Shown one piece after another: positions 5,425-44,500 of a stretch of DNA of 64,000 nt (its first letter is position 1; each line of letters begins with the position of its first letter). The DNA comes from Octopus vulgaris. Lineage: Eukaryota. The notes under the pieces were generated by a model. The model was not told the DNA's origin, made no database searches, and saw nothing but the letters and a program-made list of their open reading frames with translations. The position numbers and the translations under genes are program-made. Location: the NCBI GenBank assembly GCA_951406725.2, contig OX597822.1:96844001-96908000 (forward strand). Reading direction: 5' to 3'.

Positions 5425-5830
5425 TTCTTATTCTTATACCTGTTTCAGTCATTTGACTGTGGCCATGCTGCAGCACCGCCTTTAGTCGAGCAACTCGACC
5501 CCGAGACTTATTCTTTTGTAAGCCCAGTACTTATTCTATCGGTCTCTTAGGCTGAACCGCTAAGTAACGGGGACATAAACGCACCAGCATCGGTTGTCAA
5601 GCAATGCTCGGGGGACAAACACAGACACACAAATACACACACACATACATACATATACATATATACGACGGGCTTCTTTCAGTTTCCGTCTACCAAATCC
5701 ACTCACAAGGCTTTGGTCGGCCCGAGGCTACAGTAGAAGACACTTGCCCAAGGTGTCACGCAGTGGGACTGAACCCGCAACCATGTGGTTGGTAGACAAG
5801 CTACTTACCACACAGCCACTCCTGCGCCTA
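5425..5830 (-). mobile_element. SINE-B, full length
   Basis: Matches 27895-28340 in reverse; internal (TA/TG)n linker. Confidence 0.9.
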
Positions 5831-8431: not shown

Positions 8432-10040
8432 AATCATCGTTGTCATTATCGTTTAACATCCACTTTCGATGCTGGCATGGGTTGGATGGTTTGACATGAA
8501 GGCGGTGAGCTGGCAGAAATGTTAGCACGCCGGGCGAAATGTGTAGCCGTATTTCGTCTGCCGTTATATTTTGAGTTCAAATTCCGCCGAGGTCGACTTT
8601 GCCTTTCATCCTTTCGGGTCGATAAATTAAGTACCAGTTACGCACTGGGATCGATATAATCGACTTAATCCGTTTGTCTGTCCTTGCTTGTCCCCTCTGT
8701 GTTTAGCCCCTTGTGGGTAGTAAAGAAATAGGTTTGACATGGAGCTGGCTATCAGGGAACTGTCTGAACTCCAACTGTCTGTTGTGGCATGGTTTTTACA
8801 GCTGGATGCCCTTCCTTATGCCAACCACTTAACAGAATGTGGTGGATGCTTTTTACTTTCCACTGTCATGAGTGTGTTTATGCAGCACTAGCATGGGTGC
8901 ATTAACATAGCACCGACATGGGTAATTTTTTAAGTGACACTAATACCTGAAAAGACAAGCCGGTATGTGTGGAAGACACAAGCTGGCTAAGGCGGTGAGC
9001 TGGCAGAAATATTAGCACGCCGGGCGAAATGCTTAGCGGTATTCGTCTGTCCTTACGTTGTGAGTTCAAATTCGCCGAGGTCGACTTTGCCTTTCATCCT
9101 TTCGGGTCGATAAATTAAGTACCAGTTATGCACTGGGGTCGATATAATCGACTTAATCCGTTTGTCTGTCCTTGCTTGTCCCCTCTATGTTTAGTCCCTT
9201 GTGGGTAATAAAGAAACAGGTATTTCGTCTGCCGATACGTTCTGAGTTCAAATTCTGCCGAGGTAGACATTGCCTTTCATCCTTTCAGGATCACTTAAAT
9301 GAGTACCAGTTACGCACTGGGCTCGATATAATCAACTTAATCCGTTTGTCTGTCCTTGCTTGTCCCCTCTGTGTTTAGCCCCTTGTGGGTGGTAAAGAAA
9401 TAGGTTTGACATGAAGCTGGCTATCAGGGAACTGTCTGAACTCCAACTGTCTGTTGTGGCATGGTTTTTACAGCTGGATGCCCTTCCTTATGCCAACCAC
9501 TTAACAGAATGTGGTGGATGCTTTTTACTTTCCACTGTCATGAATATGTTTATGCAGCACTAGCATGGGTGCATTAACATAGCACCGACATGGGTAATTT
9601 TTAAGTGACACCAATACCTGAAAAGACAAGCCGGTATGTGTGGAAGACACAAGCTGGCTAAGGCGGTGAGCTGGCAGAAATATTAGCACGCCGGGCGAAA
9701 TGCTTAGCAGTATTTCGTCTGTCCTTACGTTGTGAGTTCAAATTCCGCCGAGGTCGACTTTGCCTTTCATCCTTTCGGGGTCGATAAATTAAGTACCAGT
9801 TACGCACTGGGGTCGATGTAATCGACTTAATACCTATGTCTGTCCTTGTTTGTCCCCTCTGTGTTTAGCCCCTTGTGGGTAATAAAGAAATAGGTATGTG
9901 TGGAAGACAGCAATGTTACTTACCTTGATGTGTCTTATCAAGTACAGCAAATCACCACATCTCCTGGTTCCTTGTCATTTCCTCAGTGAGGCTCAGCATC
10001 CAAAGATCCTTTTCCACCACTTCGTCCCATGTCTTCTTGG
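8432..10040 (-). mobile_element. Older RTE 3' end interrupted by SINE-A copies and a tandem duplication
   Basis: Tail motif from 8432. 9965-10040 on the minus strand reads PRRHG/TWDEVVEKDLWMLSLTEEMTR-like RTE C-terminus (PRKTWDEVV motif). Confidence 0.75.
8500..9893 (+). mobile_element. SINE-A cluster (8500-8730, 8990-9402, 9661-9893) spanning a 672 bp tandem duplication
   Basis: TSDs ggtttgacatg and ggtatgtgtggaagaca; duplicated spacer 8731-8990 / 9403-9661. Confidence 0.9.
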
Positions 10041-11277: not shown

Positions 11278-12570
11278 GATTTGAGATACATTTGGCTGCT
11301 ATTTATAGCCTGTCGAGCTCTTCACAGGGAGGCTTTCTTAGCCTGTATATATCCTCCGTTGGAGGCGCAATGGCCCAGTGGTTAGGGCAGCGGACTCGCG
11401 GTCATAGGATCGCGGTTTCGATTCCCAGACCGGGCGTTGTGAGTGTTTATTGAGCGAAAACACCTAAAGCTCCACGAGGCTCTGGCAGGGGATGGTGGTG
11501 ATCCCTGCTGTACTCTTTCACCACAACTTTCTCTCACTCTTACTTCCTGTTTCTGTTGTACCTGTATTTCAAAGGGCCGGCCTTGTCACTCTCTGTGTCA
11601 CGCTGAATATCCCCGAGAACTATGTTAAGGGTACACGTGTCTGTGGAGTGCTCAGCTACTTACACGTTAATTTCACAAGCAGGCTGTTCCGTTGATTCGG
11701 ATCAACCGGAACTCTCGTTGTCGTAACCGACGGAGTGCTTCCATATATCCTCCAGTGCATACTTCTTTTTTATTACAACAGCAGGATATCATTTGAGATT
11801 TGAGGATATGATTTGCCTGTTATTTATAGCCAATCAAGCTTTTCACAGAGAAGCTCTCTTAGCTTGTGCATATCCTCCAGTACATACCTCCTGTTTATTA
11901 GGACTGCAGGATATGATCTGGGATATGATTTGCCTGCTATTTATAGCCAGTCAAGCTTTTCACAGAGAGGCTCTCTTAGCTTGTGCATATCCTCCACTGC
12001 ATACTTCCTGTTTATTAGGACTGCAGGATATGATCTGGGATAGGTTTGGTTGCTATTTGTGGCCAGTCAAGCTTTTCACAGAGAAGCTCTCTTAGCTTGT
12101 ACATATCATCCACTGCATACTTCCTGTTTATTAGGACTGCAGGATATGATCTGAGATGGGTTTGGTTGCTATTTTTGGCCAATCAAGCTTTTCACAGAGA
12201 AGCTCTCTTAGCTTGTGCATATCCTCCAGTACATACTTCCTGTTTATTAGGACTGCAGGATATGATCTGGGATAGGTTTGGCTGCTATTTGTAGCCAGTC
12301 AAGCTTTTCACGGAGAGGCTCTCTTAGCTTGTGCATATCCTCCAGTGAATACTTTCCTGTTTATTAGGACTGCAGGATATGATCTGGGATAGGTTTGGCT
12401 GCTATTTGTGGCCAGTCAAGCTTTTCACGGAGAGGCTCTCTTAGCTTGTGCATATCCTCCAGTGAATACTTCCTGTTTATTAGGACTGCAGGATATGATC
12501 TGGGATAGGTTTGGCTGCTATTTGTGGCCAGTCAAGCTTTTCACAGAGAGGCTCTCTTAGCTTGCACATA
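11278..12570. repeat. 116-117 bp minisatellite (about 8 units); first unit interrupted by SINE-D
   Basis: Unit starts (gatctg) at 11915, 12032, 12148, 12264, 12381 and 12497. Confidence 0.95.
11361..11742 (+). mobile_element. tRNA-derived SINE-D
   Basis: A and B boxes; TSD atatatcctcc; near-identical to 19531-19897. Confidence 0.9.
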
Positions 12571-13291
12571 TTGTGGTAAAGCCAATGGATGACACTCACT
12601 TGTTTCTAGGTGACTAGAAGTTCTGTCAACAGTTGCTGGGGAGTTTTAGGTAAGGTATGCTTTCAAGAAGAACAGCTCACCTATTTCATGTACTGACCTG
12701 GTCCTTGTGAATCCGAAGCCATTCTGTTTGTTGTAAAGTGTCTCCACCCAACCACCCCACTTACCAACGCAACAATTTTGTTTCTTCGCGTAATTAAAGA
12801 GGTTTTGCTAATAACCATGTTTTGAATTCAGCATGTGTCAGCTAGCATACAGACTGTTCTGTGTACCACCTTCTACACCCCTACCCATAGTGTATCCATG
12901 TTGTTTATACATTTGTGTATGTGTGTGTGTGTGGTGTTTGTGTATGTGCAATATACATACACACATTATGTATATATAGATATATTGTATGGTGTGTGTG
13001 TGAATATATATATACATACATACATACATACACACATGTATACATACATACATACATAAAAATATATACTTTGTACCCTCAGTCACTATTAATGGTATTG
13101 GAATTTTTCCTTTTTGATTTTATACTGTATCTAACCACCTTCATTATTTTATAATCTATATATATATATATATATATATATACTCCGTGTTCTTTCTGTT
13201 GTGAGTTTGCTACCCAGGTATCGGTTATCTTTCGAATTATCCGTAATAAGATAATTCATTTATCTACTTATATATATATATATATATATAT

Positions 13292-14831: not shown

Positions 14832-16896
14832 TCATCATCATCATCATCATCATCGTTTAACGTCCGCTTTCCATGCTAGCATGGGTTGGACGGTTCAACT
14901 GGGGTCTGGGAAGCCCGAAGGCTGCACCAGGCCAGTCAGATGTGGCAGTGTTTCTACAGCTGGATGCCCTTCCTAACGCCAACCACTCCGAGAGTGTAGT
15001 GGGTGATTTTATGTGCCACCGACACAGGTGCCAGACGAGGCTGGCAGACGGCCACGCTCGGATGGTGTTTTTTATGTGCCACCGACACAGGTGCCAGACG
15101 AGGCTGGCAGACGGCCACGCTCGGATGGTGTTTTCTTATGTGTCACCGACACAGGTGCCAGACGAGGCTGGCGGACGGCCACGCTCGGATGGTGTTTGTT
15201 ACGTGCCCTCAGCACGGAGGCCAGTCATTGCGGTACTAGCTACGGTCACGTTCGGATGGTTTTCTTATGTGCCACCGGCACTGGTACCACAAGGATACAA
15301 ATTCCATTGATGTTCATCTATTTTGATTTGGTTCGATACGATTCGATTCTCACTTGCCTCAACAGGTCTTCACAAGTGTCACAAGAAGGAAGGTATGCAC
15401 AGGTGGACTGACTACGTCCCAGGTAGGGGCCACGGATTATGGCTTCACTAGTCTTGCCGGGTCTTCTCACGCACAGCATACTTCCATAGGTCTCGGTCTC
15501 TAGTCATTTCCATGGTGAGACCTAACGTCCGAAGGTCGTGCTTCACCACCTCGTCCCAGGTTTTCCTGGGTCTACCTCTTCCACGGGTTCCCTCAACTGC
15601 TAGGGATTGGCACTTTCTCACACACCTATCTTCATCCATTCTCGCCACATGACCATACCAGCGCAATCGTCTCTCTTGCACACAACAACTGATGCTTCTT
15701 AGGTACAACATTTCTCTCAAGGTACTAACGCTCTGTCGAGTAAGTACACTGACATTACACATCCATCGGAGCATACTGGCTTCGTTCCTCACGAGCTTAC
15801 GCATGTCCTCAGCAGTCACGGCCCATGTTTCACTGCCATGTAGCATAGCTGTTCGTACACATGCATCATACAGTCTGCCTTTTACTCTGAGCGAGAGGCC
15901 TTTAGTCACCAGCAGAGGTAAGAGCTCCCTAAACTTTGCCCAGGCTATTCTTATTCTAGCAGTTACACTTTCAGCGCACCCACCCCCACTACTGACTTGG
16001 TCACCTAGATAGCGGAAGCTATCAACTACTTCTAGTTTTTCCCCCGGAAAGTGACAGAAGTTGTTTTCTGCAGATTTTCGGAGGTCAATGCTCCAGAGCA
16101 CCTGCCACATACAAAAACTATCTTCCCAGTTAGCCTACCTTTGACATTGCTGCACCTCTTATGTGTCCATAGCTTACACTGGGTACATCTTATAGAGTTT
16201 CTACCTACACCTTTTCTACAGATCGAGCAGGGCCATCTTCCTGAGGATATTTGTGGGTTTTCTACCTTTCTACTTATTAGTACTTTGGTTTTAGCTAGGT
16301 TGACTCTAAGGCCCCTCGATTCTAAACCCTCCTTCCACACCTGGAACTTCTCCTCCAGTTCTGATAGTGACTCAGCGATTAGAGCGAGGTCGTCAGCATA
16401 GAGGAGCTCCCAGGGGCAACCTGTCTTGAATTCCTCCGTTATTGCCTGGAGGACTATGATAAATAGGAGGGGCTGAGTACTGAACCCTGGTGGACCCCAA
16501 CCTCTACTTTGAATTCTTCTGTGTACATGTTGCCAACTCTAACCTTACTTACGGCATCTCTGTACATGGCTTGCACAGCCCTCACCAGCCATTCATCTAT
16601 CCCTAGTTTCCTCATTGACCACCAGATGAGGGATCGGGGACCCTATCAAAGGCTTTCTCCATGTCAACGAAAGCCAGGTACAGGGGCTTATCCTTGGCTA
16701 GGTATTTCTCCTGCAGCTGCCTTACCAGGAATATAGCATCAGTGGTGCTTTTCCCTGGGACAAACCCAAACTGCATCTCATCTAAACTAACTCTCTCTCT
16801 AATTAGTTGGGCTATGACCCTCTCCGTAACCTTCATTACCTGATCCAACAGCTTGATACCTCTGTAATTATTTGTATCCAGGGCATCACCTTTACC
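14832..16896 (-). mobile_element. 5'-truncated RTE-clade LINE (frameshifted reverse transcriptase, 3' UTR and (GAT)n tail)
   Basis: QFGFVPGKSTTDAIF, AFVDMEKAFDRV, LLYADD (16389-16400), FRYLG and RRLRWYGHVARM...RGRGRPRKTW motifs in shifted frames. 3' UTR has 63-64 bp tandem units and ends in (GAT)n. Confidence 0.95.
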
Positions 16897-17104: not shown

Positions 17105-17410
17105 TCATCATCATCATTTAGCGTCCGTTTTCCATGCTAGCATGGGTTGGACGGTTTAACTGGGGTCTGTGAAGCCGGAAGGCTTCATCAGGCCCAGTCA
17201 GATTTGGCAGTGTTTCTACGGCTGGATGCCCTTCCTAACGCCAACCACTCTGTGAGTGTAGTGGGTGCTTTTTACGTGCCACCTGCACAGGTGCCAGACA
17301 GAGCTGGCAAACGGCCACGAACGGATGGTGTTTTTACGTGCCACCAGCACGGGGGCCGGGCAAGGCTGGCAACGGACACGAACGGATGGTGCTTTTACGT
17401 GCTACCGGCA
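17105..17410 (-). mobile_element. RTE 3'-tail copy
   Basis: Same tail consensus as 14832. Confidence 0.85.
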
Positions 17411-17425
17411 TATATATATATATAT

Positions 17426-17740
17426 TGGAAATTAATTGTTATCGCCATATTAATATGGCATTCTTATAATATAAGAATAATCGCTGCCGCTGGTCAGCTC
17501 TATGAGGCCACCGCCTTAAGATAAAACTAAACCCAACAACAAAACACTACCACCACCACTAACAAACAACAATAACAACACTATTATCACAATCACCACC
17601 ATCACCAACAAATAACCATGTCACAACCGCCAACACTACTAGAATCACCACAACCACCACCAATGGAGCTGACCAGCGGCAGCGATTATTCTTATATTAT
17701 AAGAATGCCATATTAATATGGCGATAACAATTAATTTCCA
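17426..17740. repeat. 75 bp perfect inverted repeats enclosing an inverted copy of neighbouring DNA
   Basis: 17426-17500 equals the reverse complement of 17666-17740; interior 17522-17664 matches the reverse complement of about 17952-18105. Confidence 0.92.
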
Positions 17741-17791
17741 GTAAACGCTGTCGTAATCTCTTTTATAGAGACTTAGTAATTTTAATATTTC

Positions 17792-17842
<51 letters not shown>

Positions 17843-18120
17843 GTGTTGTAACTTCTGTGTCCTGTTGGTAACCAGTTCCTAATTCCCACATTAAGTCACT
17901 GCTTCCCCACTGCCGGCTCCTCTTAGATCTGAGATTGTACTTGGGTATAAAATTGGTGGTGGTTGTGGTGATTCTAGTAGTGTTGGCAGTTGTGACATGG
18001 TTATTTGTTGGTGATGGTGGTGATTGTGATAATAGTGTTGTTATTGTTGTTGTTGTTGTTGTTAGTGGTGGTGGTGGTAGTGTTTTGTTGTTGGGTTTAG
18101 TTTTAGTTACAGTAGTTTTT

Positions 18121-18226: not shown

Positions 18227-18797
18227 CTGTAGTGGTGGTAGTAGTAGTAGTAGTGTTATTGGTGTGTGTGGTGTGGTGTTATGGTTGTTGTTTAACCCTC
18301 GGTCAACCTTCATCCCATAGGATTATGCTCAAAAGTAATCCAAACATGAAATCCTATATTTTTTTTGTATATCTAGGACTATATTTGTTTAGTGTGCCCT
18401 TCTACTTTTTGATGCAGTAACATATAATTTGAGCAATATTTGGCTGCTATTTTTAGACATTTCAAAGTGCACAGTATTACCTACTCTATGACAAATATTA
18501 CAATACATCTATGAATCACAGATAGGTATTTGACAGAGACTGTGTGCCACATTAGGTATGTCTGATCAGTCCTAACTTTGCCTTCATGACCATAACCTCT
18601 TTGGAAGGAGGAGGAGGAGGCTTCTAAGTTGTAATTTGATCTGCTAGAAATAGCAGCTAAATTTTAAATCAAACCCTGTTGTCTTAAACAAGGTAGAATA
18701 CATACCACTATGTTTTCATTATTGAAACATTATTTAAATATAAAACTTAAGTGAATGTTGCATGAAACATTACATTTCGTATAAATAAAATTCACTA

Positions 18798-18968
18798 GGT
18801 GTAGGAGTGGCTGTGTGGTAAGAAGCTTGTTTACGAACCACATGGTTCTGGGTTCAGTCCCACTGTGTGGCATCTTGGGCAAGTGTCTTATACTATAGCC
18901 TCGGGTCGACCAAAGCCTTGTGAGTGGATTTTGTAGACGGAAACTGAAAGAACCCCCTTGTATATATG

Positions 18969-19005
<37 letters not shown>

Positions 19006-19048
19006 CAAAATTAGAAAATGGAGAAACATACTTAAATCAATAAAACAT

Positions 19049-19091
<43 letters not shown>

Positions 19092-19290
19092 ATATGTTTG
19101 TGTGTCTGTATTTGTCCCTCCAACATCGCTTGACAACTGATGCTGGTGTGTTTATGTCGCTGTAACTTAGCGGTTTGGCAAAAGAGGCCGATAAAATAAG
19201 TTCTAGTCTTACAAAGAATAAGTCTTGGGGTCGATTTGCTCGACTAAAAAGGTGGTGTTCCAGCATGGCCACAGTCAAATGACTAAAACA
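18798..19290 (+). mobile_element. SINE-B
   Basis: Consensus match with an expanded internal microsatellite. Confidence 0.9.
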
Positions 19291-19530
19291 AGTAAAAGAG
19301 TAAAGAGTATTGCAAAAGACTGGAAATTTTATCCATACAAATTATATTTAGATATATCCTAAATTTTATGACCCATGACTGTAGAAAGCAGTTTCGTTGA
19401 GATTTTATCTTTGAGACTATTTTTCATTGTGAAATATCAAGTTTTTTGAGGCAATGACTTGCAGAAAATATCACTTCTATATTTTGGCAAATATTTAATG
19501 AACATCATTAGTGGAATACTGAAGGTGCAG

Positions 19531-20239: not shown

Positions 20240-20638
20240 TCTCTTTTACTTGTTTCAGTAATTTGACTGCGGCCATGCTGGAGCACCGCCTTTAATCAAG
20301 CAACTCGACCCCGGGACTTATTCTTTTGTAAGCCCAGTACTTATTCTATCGGTCTCTTTTGCAGAACCGCTAAGTAACGGGGACATAAACACACCAGCAT
20401 CGGTTGTCAAGCAATGCTAGGGGGACAAACACACACACGCATATATATATATATATATATATACATATATATATGACGGGCTTCTTTCAGTTTCCGTCTA
20501 CCAAATCCACTCACAAGGATTTGATCGGCCCGAGGCTATAGTAGAAGACACTTGTCCAAGGTGCCACGCAGTGGGACTGAACCCGGAACCATGTGGTTGG
20601 TAAGCAAGCTACTTACCACACAGCCACTCCTGCACCTA
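20240..20638 (-). mobile_element. SINE-B
   Basis: Consensus match. Confidence 0.9.
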
Positions 20639-23975: not shown

Positions 23976-24187
23976 CGACCGCAGCGGAATTTGAACTCAG
24001 CAAAGTCGACCGCAGTGGAAGTTGAACTCAGCAGAGTCGACCGCAGTGGAAATTGAACTCAGCAGAGTCGACCGCAGTGGAAATTGAACTCAGCAGAGTC
24101 GACCGCAGTGGAAATTGAACTCAGCAAAGTCGACCGCAGTGGAAGTTGAACTCAGCAAAGTCGACTGCAGAGGAATTTGAACTCAGA
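23976..24187 (-). repeat. 31 bp tandem repeat x7 derived from the SINE-A B-box region
   Basis: gtcgaccgcagtggaaattgaactcagcaga at 24005, 24036, 24067, 24098, 24129 and 24160, plus a partial first unit. Confidence 0.95.
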
Positions 24188-39202: not shown

Positions 39203-39303
39203 TTAAACAATAAATGCAAGGTATTTTTTAACATAGAATGCTTTCAGTGTCTGGGATATTTTCTCTTACTTATATCACTTTTTTTCTCTTTTTGTTTTTT
39301 CAG

Positions 39304-41084
39304 GAGCGAAGAAGAATGGCATCTTCTCGAAAGTCTACCTCATCAAAATATAACCAGGAAGGATCTCGTCGGAAACTTACACGTCAGAGAGATCACGTAG
39401 AACATCAAGTTATTGAACAAGATGTCTTTACTCCGAAGCGTAAAGGAAGCCAAAAAAGTGGTAGCGTCACCACTAAAGCCAGCAAAACATCAAGTGATAG
39501 TGGCCAAAATTCAAAAGTCGAAGCTACCAAGAATAAAGTAACAAAGAAGAAGCCTGAAGATGGCGGGAAAGCAGAGAAAAAGGCCCACATTAAGGAACCG
39601 GTGCCGCCAGACATTAATTCATCTGCTTCGTCGACCTTTGGTTCGCAAGAATCAGAAAAATCTAGTTTGGCTGCAAGTAATTGCAGTGGCAGTAGTAGTG
39701 GTGTTAGTGGAAAATTAGAAACGAGTGGTCGCAGTAGTTCATCAAAAAGTGGCACCGGCCAGTCTGCGAGTCAAGGAAGCAGTGGCACAACTCAGAAACA
39801 TGGTTCATCACCAACCTCAAAGAAAAGTGGTGCTTCATCAAAATCCTCACCGAGTGCAACTGCCAAACGGGCTGGTCGTGGCGGTTCTTCAGATGGCAAG
39901 AAGGATTGTTCTAGGGAGCGGAAAATGGGTGTCGTTTCTTATCATTTCCACTTGCCAAAGACTGAAGTCCCGACCCCAGCACCAAAACCGACAGTCACTG
40001 AGGTGACGAGTGTGAAGACAAATGTTACCGTTGCACCAAGTATTAAGACAACTGCCAATGTTACATCTGTTGCTGCTACACCTAGCATGAAGACCACTAC
40101 GGTGGTAACGTCCAGCATGAAGACAACTGTTGCTGCTACATCGAGCAAAACGACAACTGCTGTTACTACGTCAGCAAGTGTGAAGACAACTGCCAATGTC
40201 GCTGTATCAATTGGAAGCACACCATCTACTGTTACAGAAGTAACGACTATTAATACTAGTTGTACAGACATCATGACTCAAGAAGAAGACCTGGAGGATA
40301 AGAGTGACAACATTTCCTCTTCATCTACAACTCCTTCACTATTGAGTGTTACTTCTGAAACCACAAGTCTCTTGGGTAAATCCCCTGAAACCAGCAGCAG
40401 TTTAAGGGATAAAGACCAGTCACAGCTTTCTCCCGGTCTTTCATCATACAGCAATATTGATTCAGATGGGACTGGCTCACCTGATTTGAGTTTTTGTAGT
40501 CCTGAGTTACCCACAAAAAACAGCCGCCTCAAGCGACGCCTTATCCAAGAACCAGCTTTCGATGAGTATGAAGAAGACTTAATAACCACAACTTCAAACT
40601 TGACATCTTCTCAATTGCCTTCTTCTTCATTGAAAATCCCAGGAATAGGTTTATTTGGTTCTAATGCCAGCCTCTTGTCACTTGATAACCAGGAGCGAAT
40701 CAGAAGTGCTTCATTGCATTTTCAACCTATGTGTTCTTCGGAGACATCACTTAACAGTCAGACCTCTCTACAGAAGCGACCATGTGAGAAGGTCCGAGAA
40801 TTGCAGCTTTCGGACTCAACATTATCAGTTCGAGGTCATGAAATGAGAGCTGGTTTTGAGAACTGTAGTACCTCAATTCTTCGTGGAAGCAGCACTGGTA
40901 GTTACAATGCCAGCTTCAATCTCCGACCGTTTGTTCGGCATTCAAGCTCTCCAGCTAAAGTTGAAAGTTCTTCGAATTATCGCAGATCAAAAGATCATCT
41001 AGCATTGCTAGAGGTTCTACGCAAACATGGACTCTGTCACTGCATACGGTTTTTCAATCGAAATATGAACATCAGGAAATTTAG
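39304..41084 (+). CDS. Large coding exon: Ser/Lys/Thr-rich disordered region plus N-terminal half of a SAM domain
   Basis: About 1.8 kb stop-free, non-microsatellite ORF. Polypyrimidine acceptor ttttgttttttcag|GAG and donor TTTAG|GTAAGT (phase 2). Ends LLEVLRKHGLCHCIRFFNRNMNIRKF. Confidence 0.92.
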
Positions 41085-42714
41085 GTAAGTTCTGATTTCT
41101 GTCTCCTTCATACCAAGAAAATTTAGTTAAATTCTGATTATTACCTCCTCATTGCTGCATTTTTCAATAATTACATTTTTCTTTTCTCCCCTTTTCATCT
41201 AGTAATTCTAAGCAAAACACTGACATTCTGCTAAATGGAAGCTACCTCTAGCTTGTAGACCAGTTAAAGAGTTAATGAAATTAACTGTACTCTCTCTCCT
41301 AAAATTTATGGCTTTTTCACTATCAATTATTGTCATCATTAGAGCTTTGCAGTATTATTTCTTGTGGATCTTTACGTTGACTTTCAGCTTTTTGGGAGTT
41401 TTTTGAAAGTGGGGTGGATTAATAAACTAAAGAACTCAAGTATGGGGATTCATTTAATTGACTAACCCCTTCCTCAAAATTGCTTACCGTATGACTAAAC
41501 CAGAAATGATGAGTTCAAATTTTGGTAAAGGGCAGCAATTTTGTGGAGAAGGGGTAAGTTGATACCATTGATCCCCAGTATTTTACTGGTATTTTTTTTA
41601 TCAACCTCAAAAGAATGAAAGGCTAAGTTGCCATTGGCAACATTTGAACTCAGAACTTTAAAAGCTGGAAGAAAAGTTGCTGAGCATTTTGTCTGACCTG
41701 TTAATGATTCTGCTAGGTCACTGCCTAAATATTGATTTCAAATTCTGGCACAAGGCCAGCAGTTTCAAGGAGTGGGTAAATCACTTACATCTACCTCAGT
41801 GCTCAACTGGTACATATTTTATTGACCCAGTTTAATCAACTGGCCTGATCCCTTCAAAAATTGCCGGCTTTGTGTTAAAATTTGGAACAATTACTATGAT
41901 TATTAGAGGGCAAGCTGGCAGAATTGTTAGCATGCCAGACAAAAAGCTTAGTGGTATGTCATCTGTTTATATGTTTTCAGTTAAAACTCCACTGGGGGTC
42001 TGCTTTGCTTTTCGCTTTCATCCTTTTGGGTTTGATGGAACAAATACCAGTTGAACCCTGGGGTTGATGTAATTGATTGTTCCCATCCCCTAAAATTTCA
42101 GGCCTTCTGGCTATAATAGTAAGGATTATTGTGTTTGGGAAGACATGTGAAATTGTGGTCTTGGCCAGTGAAGGGACATGTAAAAGGCAACCATGCTGGT
42201 GACACAGAAAAGACACCCAGAACACTCTGTAGAGTGGTTGGTGTTAGAAAGGGCGTCCAAATGTAGAAACCAAGCCAAAACAGATGACTGGGGCCTGATG
42301 CATCTCTCTAGCTTACCAGCTCTGGTCAAACCGTCTAACCCATGCCAGCATGGAAAGCAGACGTTAAATGATGATGATTTTGCTATTCCATCATCCTCTC
42401 TCCCTCTCTCTCTCTCTCATTCCCCCTTGCACCTCACCTCTTTACTCTATTTGTGAGGTGAGGTCAGACGCAGTTATACAACATAAAAAATATGCATCGC
42501 AGAATTATCTTTGGCAGGTGTTGCTGTTGTTGTTGTTGTTGTTATTGCTTGTAATTTTAGATCTTACATGTGTGTGTGTGCAGCTTCTTGTCTGTCTTCT
42601 GTTTATATTTGCTTCAGTTCACACCCAGCTGTACTGGATTTTGAAATCGGTCAGTCATCTCTTTGATGGCAGGGGTTTTGTTGTTGTTGTTGTCAGATGA
42701 AGTAATGTTTTATA

Positions 42715-44019: not shown

Positions 44020-44500
44020 TTTCTCCGAACTATAATTATACTGACTGCTACGGAGCGTGGGCTGCGGGGTCACTCCGAAAAGCTCTATCTGCGACGATTT
44101 CATCTCAATCGAAGGAGAGGGGCTTTCTCCGTCCGGGTTGTGGATCCGTGGAATAAGCTGCCGGACGAGATAGTGAAGATTGCCGACGACCACTCGGTTC
44201 AAAGTCTCTCTTGACCAGAAATGACCTGAACTCTTTGCATGAACACCCTCCCTGTACATAACTCCATGTCCCCCTACATGGCCTTGCTTTTGCTTCTTGA
44301 GCCCCAAAAATTGAACTCTTTGTATGAACATCCTCCCTGTACATAACTCCACATCCCCCTACATGGCCTTGCTTTTGCTTCTTGAGCCCCAAAAATTGAA
44401 CTCTTTGCATGAACACCCTCCCTGTACATAACTCCACATCCCCCCTACATGGCCTTGCTTTTTGCTTTTTGAGCCCCAAAAATTAAATTAAAATTAATTA
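44020..44500 (+). mobile_element. CR1-group LINE 3' end with triplicated 85 bp 3' UTR
   Basis: From 44041 reads LRGHSEKLYLRRFHLNRRRGAFSVRVVDPWNKLPDEIV...FKVSLD, a CR1 ORF2 C-terminus. Repeat units at 44227, 44312 and 44397; (AAATT)n tail. Confidence 0.85.

What the first reader, a model, noticed from the sequence alone, without database searches (positions are those of the whole stretch)
17426..18105. Inverted-repeat element that captured an inverted copy of DNA about 300 bp downstream
Seen: perfect 75 bp inverted arms (17426-17500, 17666-17740) within (TA)n-flanked sequence enclose about 143 bp that is the reverse complement of 17952-18105, differing by one substitution and microsatellite length. 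Each arm contains two palindromes (gccatattaatatggc; ttcttata-a-tataagaa). Inference: template switching onto local DNA during insertion or repair created a new TIR-bounded, Pack-type unit, and a transcript could form two mutually competing hairpins.
Basis: seen in the sequence. Interest (0 to 1): 0.7.

Follow-up and report, generated by a model that had tools for sequence, protein, structure and literature searches.

The report
Penelope-type insertion with copied-flank patch
The mirrored arms are two broken pieces of a common 364-base non-coding repeat with Penelope-like ends, not the ends of a DNA transposon, and the 143 bases between them are a flipped copy of neighbouring DNA that was likely patched in while the insertion was being sealed, something also seen at 5 of 189 other copies examined.

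Summary
The 75-bp arms are the overlap of two pieces of one 364-bp multicopy unit: 17426-17523 (minus strand, lacking the 3' tail) and 17663-17795 (plus strand, with the tail). The family has the Penelope-like (PLE) footprint: tandem units, a minimal hammerhead motif with compensatory changes, (TA)n targets, and head-to-head arms with one tailed and one tail-less end (98 of 122). No linked ORF was seen, so it is a non-autonomous, retrozyme-like repeat. The interior (17522-17664) is an inverted copy of 17952-18105, joined by 2-bp microhomologies at both ends, and its only close match found is that local source. Local-flank copies of 26-225 bp sit at junctions in 5 of 189 other insertions (2.6%), so capture recurs, with a different filler each time. 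Best reading (inferred): both cut strands were extended by reverse transcription, and one cDNA end snapped back onto its own flank before end-joining. L1 and R2 insertions show the same kind of scar; my searches found none reported for PLE-type elements. One public contig crosses the filler-arm junction, three letters short of the tool's bridging rule. Not a TIR or Pack element; no function shown.

The parts
17410..17425 (.). (AT)8 run, left part of the likely target microsatellite
   Evidence: Sequence; (TA)4+ lies within 20 bp of at least one outer end in 155 of 190 insertions, against 7% of random 20-mers in the same loci
17426..17523 (-). Tail-less arm: 5'-truncated inverted piece of the 364-bp unit (about u209-307)
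   Evidence: Alignment to one natural unit cut from L006; tail-less ends cluster at u296-310 in the family
17522..17523 (.). 2-bp microhomology (TA) shared by left arm and filler
17522..17664 (-). Filler: inverted copy of 17952-18105 (143 aligned bases, 1 substitution, 2 microsatellite indels)
17663..17664 (.). 2-bp microhomology (AT) shared by filler and right arm
17663..17795 (+). Tailed arm: 5'-truncated direct piece of the unit (about u229-362), carrying the fixed 3' end
17741..17795 (+).
   Evidence: one tailed plus one tail-less end in 98 of 122 inverted insertions
17795..17830 (.). (TA)18 run, right part of the likely target microsatellite; any target-site duplication is hidden in it
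17952..18105 (+). Source of the filler: low-complexity genomic flank starting 157 bp beyond the element's 3' end
   Evidence: a contig of run X2 runs through it into its own flank

Best explanation
This is one insertion of a non-coding 364-bp hammerhead-motif repeat with Penelope-like ends, lying as two head-to-head truncated arms in a TA microsatellite, with a 143-bp inverted copy of its own right flank between them that was likely made by snap-back DNA synthesis while the two ends were being joined. Shown: the anatomy, the family, the local source, the 2-bp microhomologies and the recurrence at other copies. Inferred steps: (1) a PLE protein acting in trans cuts both strands in (TA)n; (2) each 3' end primes reverse transcription, one at the tailed start and one at the tail-less start about 55-60 nt further in; (3) the two cDNAs have the same polarity and cannot pair along their length, so they are joined by microhomology end-joining (82 of 124 junctions show overlap); (4) here the tailed cDNA, ending in AT, folded back onto its own exposed flank strand 157 bp outside the element, copied about 150 nt away from the break with slippage in the microsatellites, let go and paired through TA with the other cDNA end. 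The polymerase is most likely a host Pol theta-type enzyme (about 2:1 over the element's own RT; not tested). The product is a repair scar, not a new mobile unit.
For: Arm search: 980 first-look candidates, 43 matches at 97-100% among 40 scored. Window = u210-310(-) + filler + u230-364(+). Of 190 insertions, 123 have a head-to-head inversion; 98 of 122 have one tailed and one tail-less outer end; junctions: 82 overlap, 6 blunt, 24 with 1-9 nt, 5 with 10-19 nt, 7 with 20 nt or more. The tail-less arm reaches further 5' than the tailed arm in 60 of 97 clean cases, and by about 20 nt here, so simple fold-back of the final tailed arm cannot make most pairs. PAc protein cleaves and extends both strands in vitro from two RT starts that bound the tail (PMC11167929). 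Other captures: L040 (92 bp, direct, 111 bp out), L196 (225 bp, inverted, 1137 bp out; the local copy is the best other hit among 40 scored), L132 (fold-back through the tail into 118 bp of adjacent flank, 100%), L172 (26 bp plus an expanded ATCT run; weakest), L124 (187 bp, inverted, at a plain 5' junction with no palindrome; local copy best among 40 scored). Pol theta starts stem-loop synthesis from 2 terminal pairs and slips (PMC11292364 abstract and opening). A contig of run X6 crosses the filler-arm junction with 52 + 28 letters.
Against: No autonomous partner with matching sequence was found. Same-RNA origin of the two arms is weak: mean self identity 98.7% against 97.9% cross, self best or tied in only 33 of 80. 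The tail is about 55-60 nt, against 30-40 bp in the papers. Every orientation of filler can be fitted to an exposed 3' strand, so orientation does not test the model. Divergence cannot time the capture: filler-source 0-3.5% against arm-arm 0-2.2% on short stretches. The X6 contig is 3 letters short of the 31-letter bridging rule; the left junction lies in a stretch the read tool skipped; no long read was seen; X1, the best holder, showed no filler contig (about 80% of that run read). No target-site duplication can be read in the TA run.
Confidence: 0.65

Rival explanations
1. The two-armed insertion came first; its palindrome centre broke later and was repaired by gap filling from nearby DNA, as proposed for single-copy Pack-TIRs.
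For: Palindromes are fragile (established knowledge, recalled); cis bias and a median 2-bp microhomology mark gap-filled Pack-TIRs (PMC8277862 passages); 5 of the 6 captures lie in inverted insertions.
Against: L124 has the same kind of patch at a 5' junction with no palindrome; L132 shows a strand folding back through the tail into the flank, arm and flank copies both 100% identical; inverted insertions are 123 of 190 of the sample, so 5 of 6 is no clear enrichment.
Confidence: 0.14
2. Same insertion event, but the element's reverse transcriptase itself jumps from the RNA onto flanking DNA (or onto a local transcript) and makes the patch.
For: R2-protein insertions include a snap-back class and an extra-template class (PMC11331408 passages); L1 ORF2p is reported to use DNA templates and to leave templated genomic insertions (PMC11702581 passages); patches of 92-225 bp from up to 1.1 kb away are long for typical Pol theta scars (recalled).
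Against: 2-bp priming and homopolymer or microsatellite slippage fit Pol theta; no data here on PLE RT using DNA templates.
Confidence: 0.14
3. Assembly chimera or sequencing fold-back artefact.
For: Inverted, low-complexity, repeat-flanked DNA is hard to assemble (PMC8557442 passage); no read or contig spanned the whole structure.
Against: Filler and source differ by a substitution and two indels; the X6 contig crosses the right junction; the X4 contig stops exactly at 17664, where two continuations would branch; X4 and X6 contigs both begin 83 letters before 17613, the point where a filler-specific path would start (my inference; those letters were masked); the arms match the family's two fixed ends.
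Confidence: 0.05
4. A TIR DNA transposon (MITE or Pack-TIR) that captured flank DNA.
For: Perfect 75-bp inverted arms, TA-rich flanks, local capture with microhomology.
Against: The arms are internal to a tandem 364-bp unit; the right arm runs 55 bp further out and the left about 20 bp further in; inversion points differ from copy to copy; 67 of 190 insertions have no inversion; the unit carries a hammerhead motif; the composite was not found elsewhere.
Confidence: 0.02

Closest known systems
Penelope-like element insertions (PMC8557442, passages; PMC11167929, parts 1-2 of 4 of the text)
   Same: Partial tandems, 5'-truncated inverted copy at the 5' side, tail at one end only, AT-rich or (TA)n targets, hammerhead motif with a very short stem III
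   Different: No RT/GIY-YIG ORF linked to the unit; tail about 55-60 nt rather than 30-40; a flank-derived patch at the inversion junction is not mentioned in the passages read
Metazoan non-LTR retrozymes (PMC7229834, passages; bioRxiv 10.64898/2026.07.22.740005, part 1 of 5 and passages)
   Same: Non-coding 150-450 bp tandem unit with a type I hammerhead motif; proposed non-autonomous PLE derivative
   Different: Motif is the minimal PLE type with U and A at the usual C3/G8 positions; mostly short two-armed insertions rather than long arrays; circular RNA and cleavage untested; the 2026 preprint has no occurrence of 'junction' and none of 'inverted' outside its references
L1 insertions with locally templated genomic DNA and twin-primed inversions (PMC11702581, passages and section 7)
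   Same: Inverted RT products joined by microhomology; three insertions with sequence templated from DNA near the site
   Different: L1 arms barely overlap, whereas these overlap by 78 bp or more; cultured-cell events against genome-assembly (presumably germline) copies here; Fig. S10 not seen
R2 (PRINT) 'snap-back' 5' junctions (PMC11331408, passages)
   Same: [quoted passage not shown]
   Different: Single cDNA at an rDNA site in an engineered system; here between two cDNA arms
Single-copy Pack-TIRs made by gap filling (PMC8277862, passages)
   Same: Nearby source, about 2-bp microhomology, about 200-bp size
   Different: Host element is a TIR DNA transposon there; here it is a retro-derived unit and the inverted arms are by-products

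Membership tests
Penelope-like elements (insertion footprint) | Tandem or partial-tandem pseudo-LTR units | tested here: met
   138 of 148 pieces starting at u1-3 are directly preceded by the unit's 3' end; arrays
Penelope-like elements (insertion footprint) | 5'-truncated inverted copy adjacent at the 5' side | tested here: met
   123 of 190 insertions, including this one
Penelope-like elements (insertion footprint) | Tail extension at one end only | tested here: met
   98 of 122 inverted insertions; length about 55-60 nt, longer than the 30-40 bp in PMC8557442
Penelope-like elements (insertion footprint) | Hammerhead motif in the repeat | tested here: met
   Pattern found in 154 of 199 pieces covering the region; 98% of cells paired, 3 pairs changed on both sides in 7 distinct rows (related rows, one two-sided change per stem); Rfam gave no hammerhead hit; the window's two arms are truncated and do not contain it
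Penelope-like elements (insertion footprint) | Microsatellite (TA)n target bias | tested here: met
   Both ends 93, one end 62, none 35 of 190; background 7%
Autonomous Penelope-like element | RT plus GIY-YIG ORF joined to the repeat | tested here: not met
   No ORF body recognised before or after any unit piece in the 60-90 nt shown; 1 of 30 GIY-YIG loci held the unit, in opposite orientation across a TA tract. The sample is the best-scoring copies only, so a rare autonomous copy is not excluded
Non-LTR retrozyme | Non-coding 150-450 bp tandem unit with type I hammerhead | tested here: met
   361-365 bp units in three subfamilies; motif as above, minimal rather than canonical
Non-LTR retrozyme | Self-cleavage and circular RNA expression | not testable with these tools
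Non-LTR retrozyme | GC content under 50% | not tested
   Not computed for the unit
TIR DNA transposon / MITE / Pack-TIR | Inverted repeats form both termini of the element | tested here: not met
   Right arm lies 55 bp inside the 3' end; arm limits vary between copies
TIR DNA transposon / MITE / Pack-TIR | Fixed-length target-site duplication | tested here: inconclusive
   Both ends lie in TA runs
TIR DNA transposon / MITE / Pack-TIR | Captured interior moves with the arms (multicopy Pack) | tested here: not met
   Interior found near-identical only at the two window sites (the search skips simple repeats)

The most novel reading that the evidence does not exclude
The Penelope reverse transcriptase itself seals its two same-polarity cDNAs by jumping onto flanking DNA, so PLE-type insertion is a regular source of local inverted and direct duplications (up to 225 bp, from more than 1 kb away, in about 3% of events). 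In genomes with tens of thousands of PLE-type copies this would be an uncounted route to small local duplications and hairpin-forming DNA, and the patches would record how far the cut ends are unwound or resected during PLE integration.
Probability: 0.2. Interest if true: 0.6.

Novelty: new variant of a known kind. Interest (0 to 1): 0.36.

Why it matters
How PLEs make their inverted arms and finish integration is an open question (PMC8557442 and PMC11167929 both say so in the text read). Junction patches are fossils of that last step: they indicate that the arm ends were free, extendable DNA ends and that flank up to about 1.1 kb away was available as template. The young family offers roughly a thousand or more copies (980-1465 first-look candidates per query; not copy numbers) on which to measure patch rate, length and distance. 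For annotation it is a caution: such scars look like MITEs or Pack-TIRs. The locus itself has no shown function.

Tried and rejected
Rfam scan of three loci: only microsatellite-driven miRNA-model hits below gathering score, no hammerhead. Search for the autonomous partner: 30 of 148 GIY-YIG matches fetched; none shares the unit as its repeat. The L015 filler first looked like a jump onto another PLE's RNA; it proved to be a local inverted copy of a neighbouring PLE fragment. L205's 56-nt filler is SINE-like with a 24-nt match about 2.5 kb away: not counted. L144 and L199 fillers are element-derived: not counted. In the screen of 67 non-inverted copies, 11 had a hit beside the 5' end; 7 were inspected and only L124 held; L158, L171, L226 and L261 were judged element- or repeat-derived alone. 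L134 may carry an 85-bp duplication or patch: not counted. Alignment A1 included one wrong stretch (L285) and was redone without it as A2. The arm self-versus-cross identity test was inconclusive. Raw reads of X22 (about 3% read) did not cover the element; X1 gave no filler contig; holes prove nothing. X2's contig runs unbranched from the shared stretch into the source flank, a hint of an empty allele but not proof. Simple fold-back as the general origin of the arms was rejected (60 of 97), though it occurs (L132).

Full report
1. Observation. The arms, the interior and the two palindromes are as described: 75 bp perfect, 78 bp with one mismatch; interior 17522-17664 equals the reverse complement of 17952-18105 with one substitution and indels of 3 and 8 nt. 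The interior's only near-identical match found in the 2.8-Gb genome is that local source. The genome is a large animal one; 'octopod' is my recall and the wording of earlier notes, not a tested result.

2. The arms are not termini. Searching with the arm gave 980 first-look candidates and 43 matches at 97-100%. In the fetched loci the arm is part of a 364-bp unit found in tandem. The window holds about u209-307 on the minus strand (17426-17523) and about u229-362 on the plus strand (17663-17795). The 75-bp repeat is simply where these two pieces overlap. Both filler junctions have 2-bp microhomology: TA at 17522-17523 and AT at 17663-17664.

3. The family. 237 loci (L001-L060 and L110-L286; the 49 loci L061-L109 fetched for other purposes were left out) merged to 187 and gave 190 insertions with a piece of 60 bp or more. 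They are the best-scoring copies of six searches, so the sample leans to young copies; two grouped cases (L014, L239) are adjacent insertions counted as one. 123 have a head-to-head inversion. Of 122 with outward-facing ends, 98 have one tailed and one tail-less end, 13 tail plus other, 7 tail-less plus other, 2 two tails, 1 two tail-less, 1 neither. (TA)4+ flanks both ends in 93, one in 62, none in 35, against a 7% background. The unit carries a minimal type I hammerhead motif (154 of 199 pieces) with one two-sided change in each of three stems between subfamilies (few, related sequences). Rfam did not detect it. 138 of 148 unit starts follow a unit end, and no ORF body was recognised. These are the PLE features listed in PMC8557442 (passages), and the two ends match the two RT starts of PAc, which cleaves and extends both strands (PMC11167929, parts 1-2 of 4). 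A non-coding tandem unit of this size fits non-LTR retrozymes (PMC7229834 passages; bioRxiv 10.64898/2026.07.22.740005 part 1 and passages). The genome holds many intact 781-aa frames with RT and GIY-YIG matches (the RT match is just under the curated cut-off) and a CX4CX2C linker of the Neptune/Nematis type. Five of 30 GIY-YIG loci carry a hammerhead-like motif with the same core and stem III as subfamily B. There is no other sequence match to the unit, so the partner is a candidate only.

4. Capture recurs. Of 124 inversion junctions, 82 overlap, 6 are blunt, 29 have 1-19 extra nt and 7 have 20 or more. Four of the seven are local flank: this locus, L040, L172 and L196; two are element-derived and one is unresolved (L205). 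L132 folds back through its tail and copies 118 bp of adjacent flank exactly. L124, a non-inverted copy, has a 187-bp inverted patch whose source starts 728 bp beyond it. Leaving out the locus I was given, that is 5 of 189 insertions (2.6%, 95% interval 0.9-6.1%) and 4 of 122 inverted ones. This is a lower bound because flanks were 1.5-2 kb; L172 is the weakest case.

5. Is it real? A 163-nt contig of run X6 (depth 26) covers 17613-17692 with one other letter, crossing the filler-arm junction with 52 and 28 letters, short of the 31-letter rule. An X4 contig ends exactly at 17664. An X2 contig passes from the shared stretch into the source's own flank and has the filler's base at 17628, which suggests the substitution lies on the source side in this assembly. 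The left junction was masked, no record spans the whole, and any of these runs might be the assembly's own sample. I put artefact at about 5%.

6. Mechanism. Shown: anatomy, microhomologies, recurrence. Inferred: both cut strands prime cDNA; the tail-less arm reaches further 5' than the tailed arm in 60 of 97 clean cases, which argues against fold-back as the general origin of the arms. Two cDNAs of one polarity must be end-joined; sometimes an end first primes on exposed flank. Here the tailed end folded onto its own strand. Two-base priming and slippage fit Pol theta (PMC11292364 abstract and opening); the RT is the main alternative, given R2 snap-back junctions (PMC11331408 passages) and L1 insertions with locally templated DNA (PMC11702581 passages and section 7). 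Later breakage of the palindrome with gap filling (as for single-copy Pack-TIRs, PMC8277862 passages) is not excluded. Against my reading: the same-RNA test was weak (33 of 80), orientation has no discriminating power, and divergence cannot order the events.

7. Hairpins. The two helices cross and cannot both form fully; the filler-source fold is predicted far more stable (-363.9 against -246.9 kcal/mol). No transcript was shown.

8. Novelty. Six full-text searches (listings and abstract starts, eight papers opened in part) found no report of flank-templated patches at PLE or retrozyme junctions; the library lacks most subscription papers and I read no supplements. Earlier notes of this scan describe two-armed hammerhead repeats in this genome; they agree but are unchecked AI notes, and none of those shown mentions flank capture in this family. 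Verdict: a real, non-functional junction scar in a known kind of element; the recurrence at about 3% is the new and testable part. Interest 0.36.

Noticed in passing
L068, L071, L074, L079, L085, L091 (about 5560-5602, minus strand): Loci of the RT/GIY-YIG family with 781-aa frames carry a hammerhead-like motif with the same U/A core variant and palindromic stem III as subfamily B of the 364-bp unit; candidate mobilising partner.
   Followed up: partly
L124 1659-1845 (G000:C10, about 114.818 Mb): 187-bp inverted copy of DNA starting 728 bp further on, at the 5' junction of a non-inverted copy.
   Followed up: yes
L132 1679-1905 (G000:C7, about 38.002 Mb): One arm folds back on itself, copies through the tail and 118 bp into the flank at 100% identity, then joins a tail-less tandem piece.
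   Followed up: yes
L134 1049-1134 and 1695-1770: Possible 85-bp target-site duplication or direct local copy around a non-inverted insertion.
   Followed up: partly
L205 1215-1270: 56-nt junction filler that looks like a patchwork of SINE pieces; 24-nt match about 2.5 kb to the left.
   Followed up: partly
L023 844-1230; L004 1935-2179; L010 675-1216: Palindromic insertions of other repeat families lie in the same TA tracts; the L023 one shares its end with the GIY-YIG-coding family of L095-L109.
   Followed up: no
window 17501: The left arm's variant base occurs in 3 of 218 copies of that motif (L002, L196, L199); two of the three are capture loci, probably by chance.
   Followed up: no
window 18796-19300 and 20241-20638: Two copies of a common short repeat in inverted orientation, 82-91% alike.
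   Followed up: no
window 15448-16134 (-) and 15007-15207: 228-aa open frame that resembles the C-terminal end of a LINE protein (recalled; no Pfam hit), followed by 63-bp tandem repeats; a similar repeat tail ends at about 17409, just left of the finding.
   Followed up: partly
window 39232-41088 (+): 618-aa Ser/Thr/Lys-rich open frame, a likely large exon; no Pfam hit.
   Followed up: partly
window 11745-12571, 23976-24186, 44227-44484, 9038-9405: Minisatellite arrays with periods 116, 31, 85 and 184 bp.
   Followed up: no
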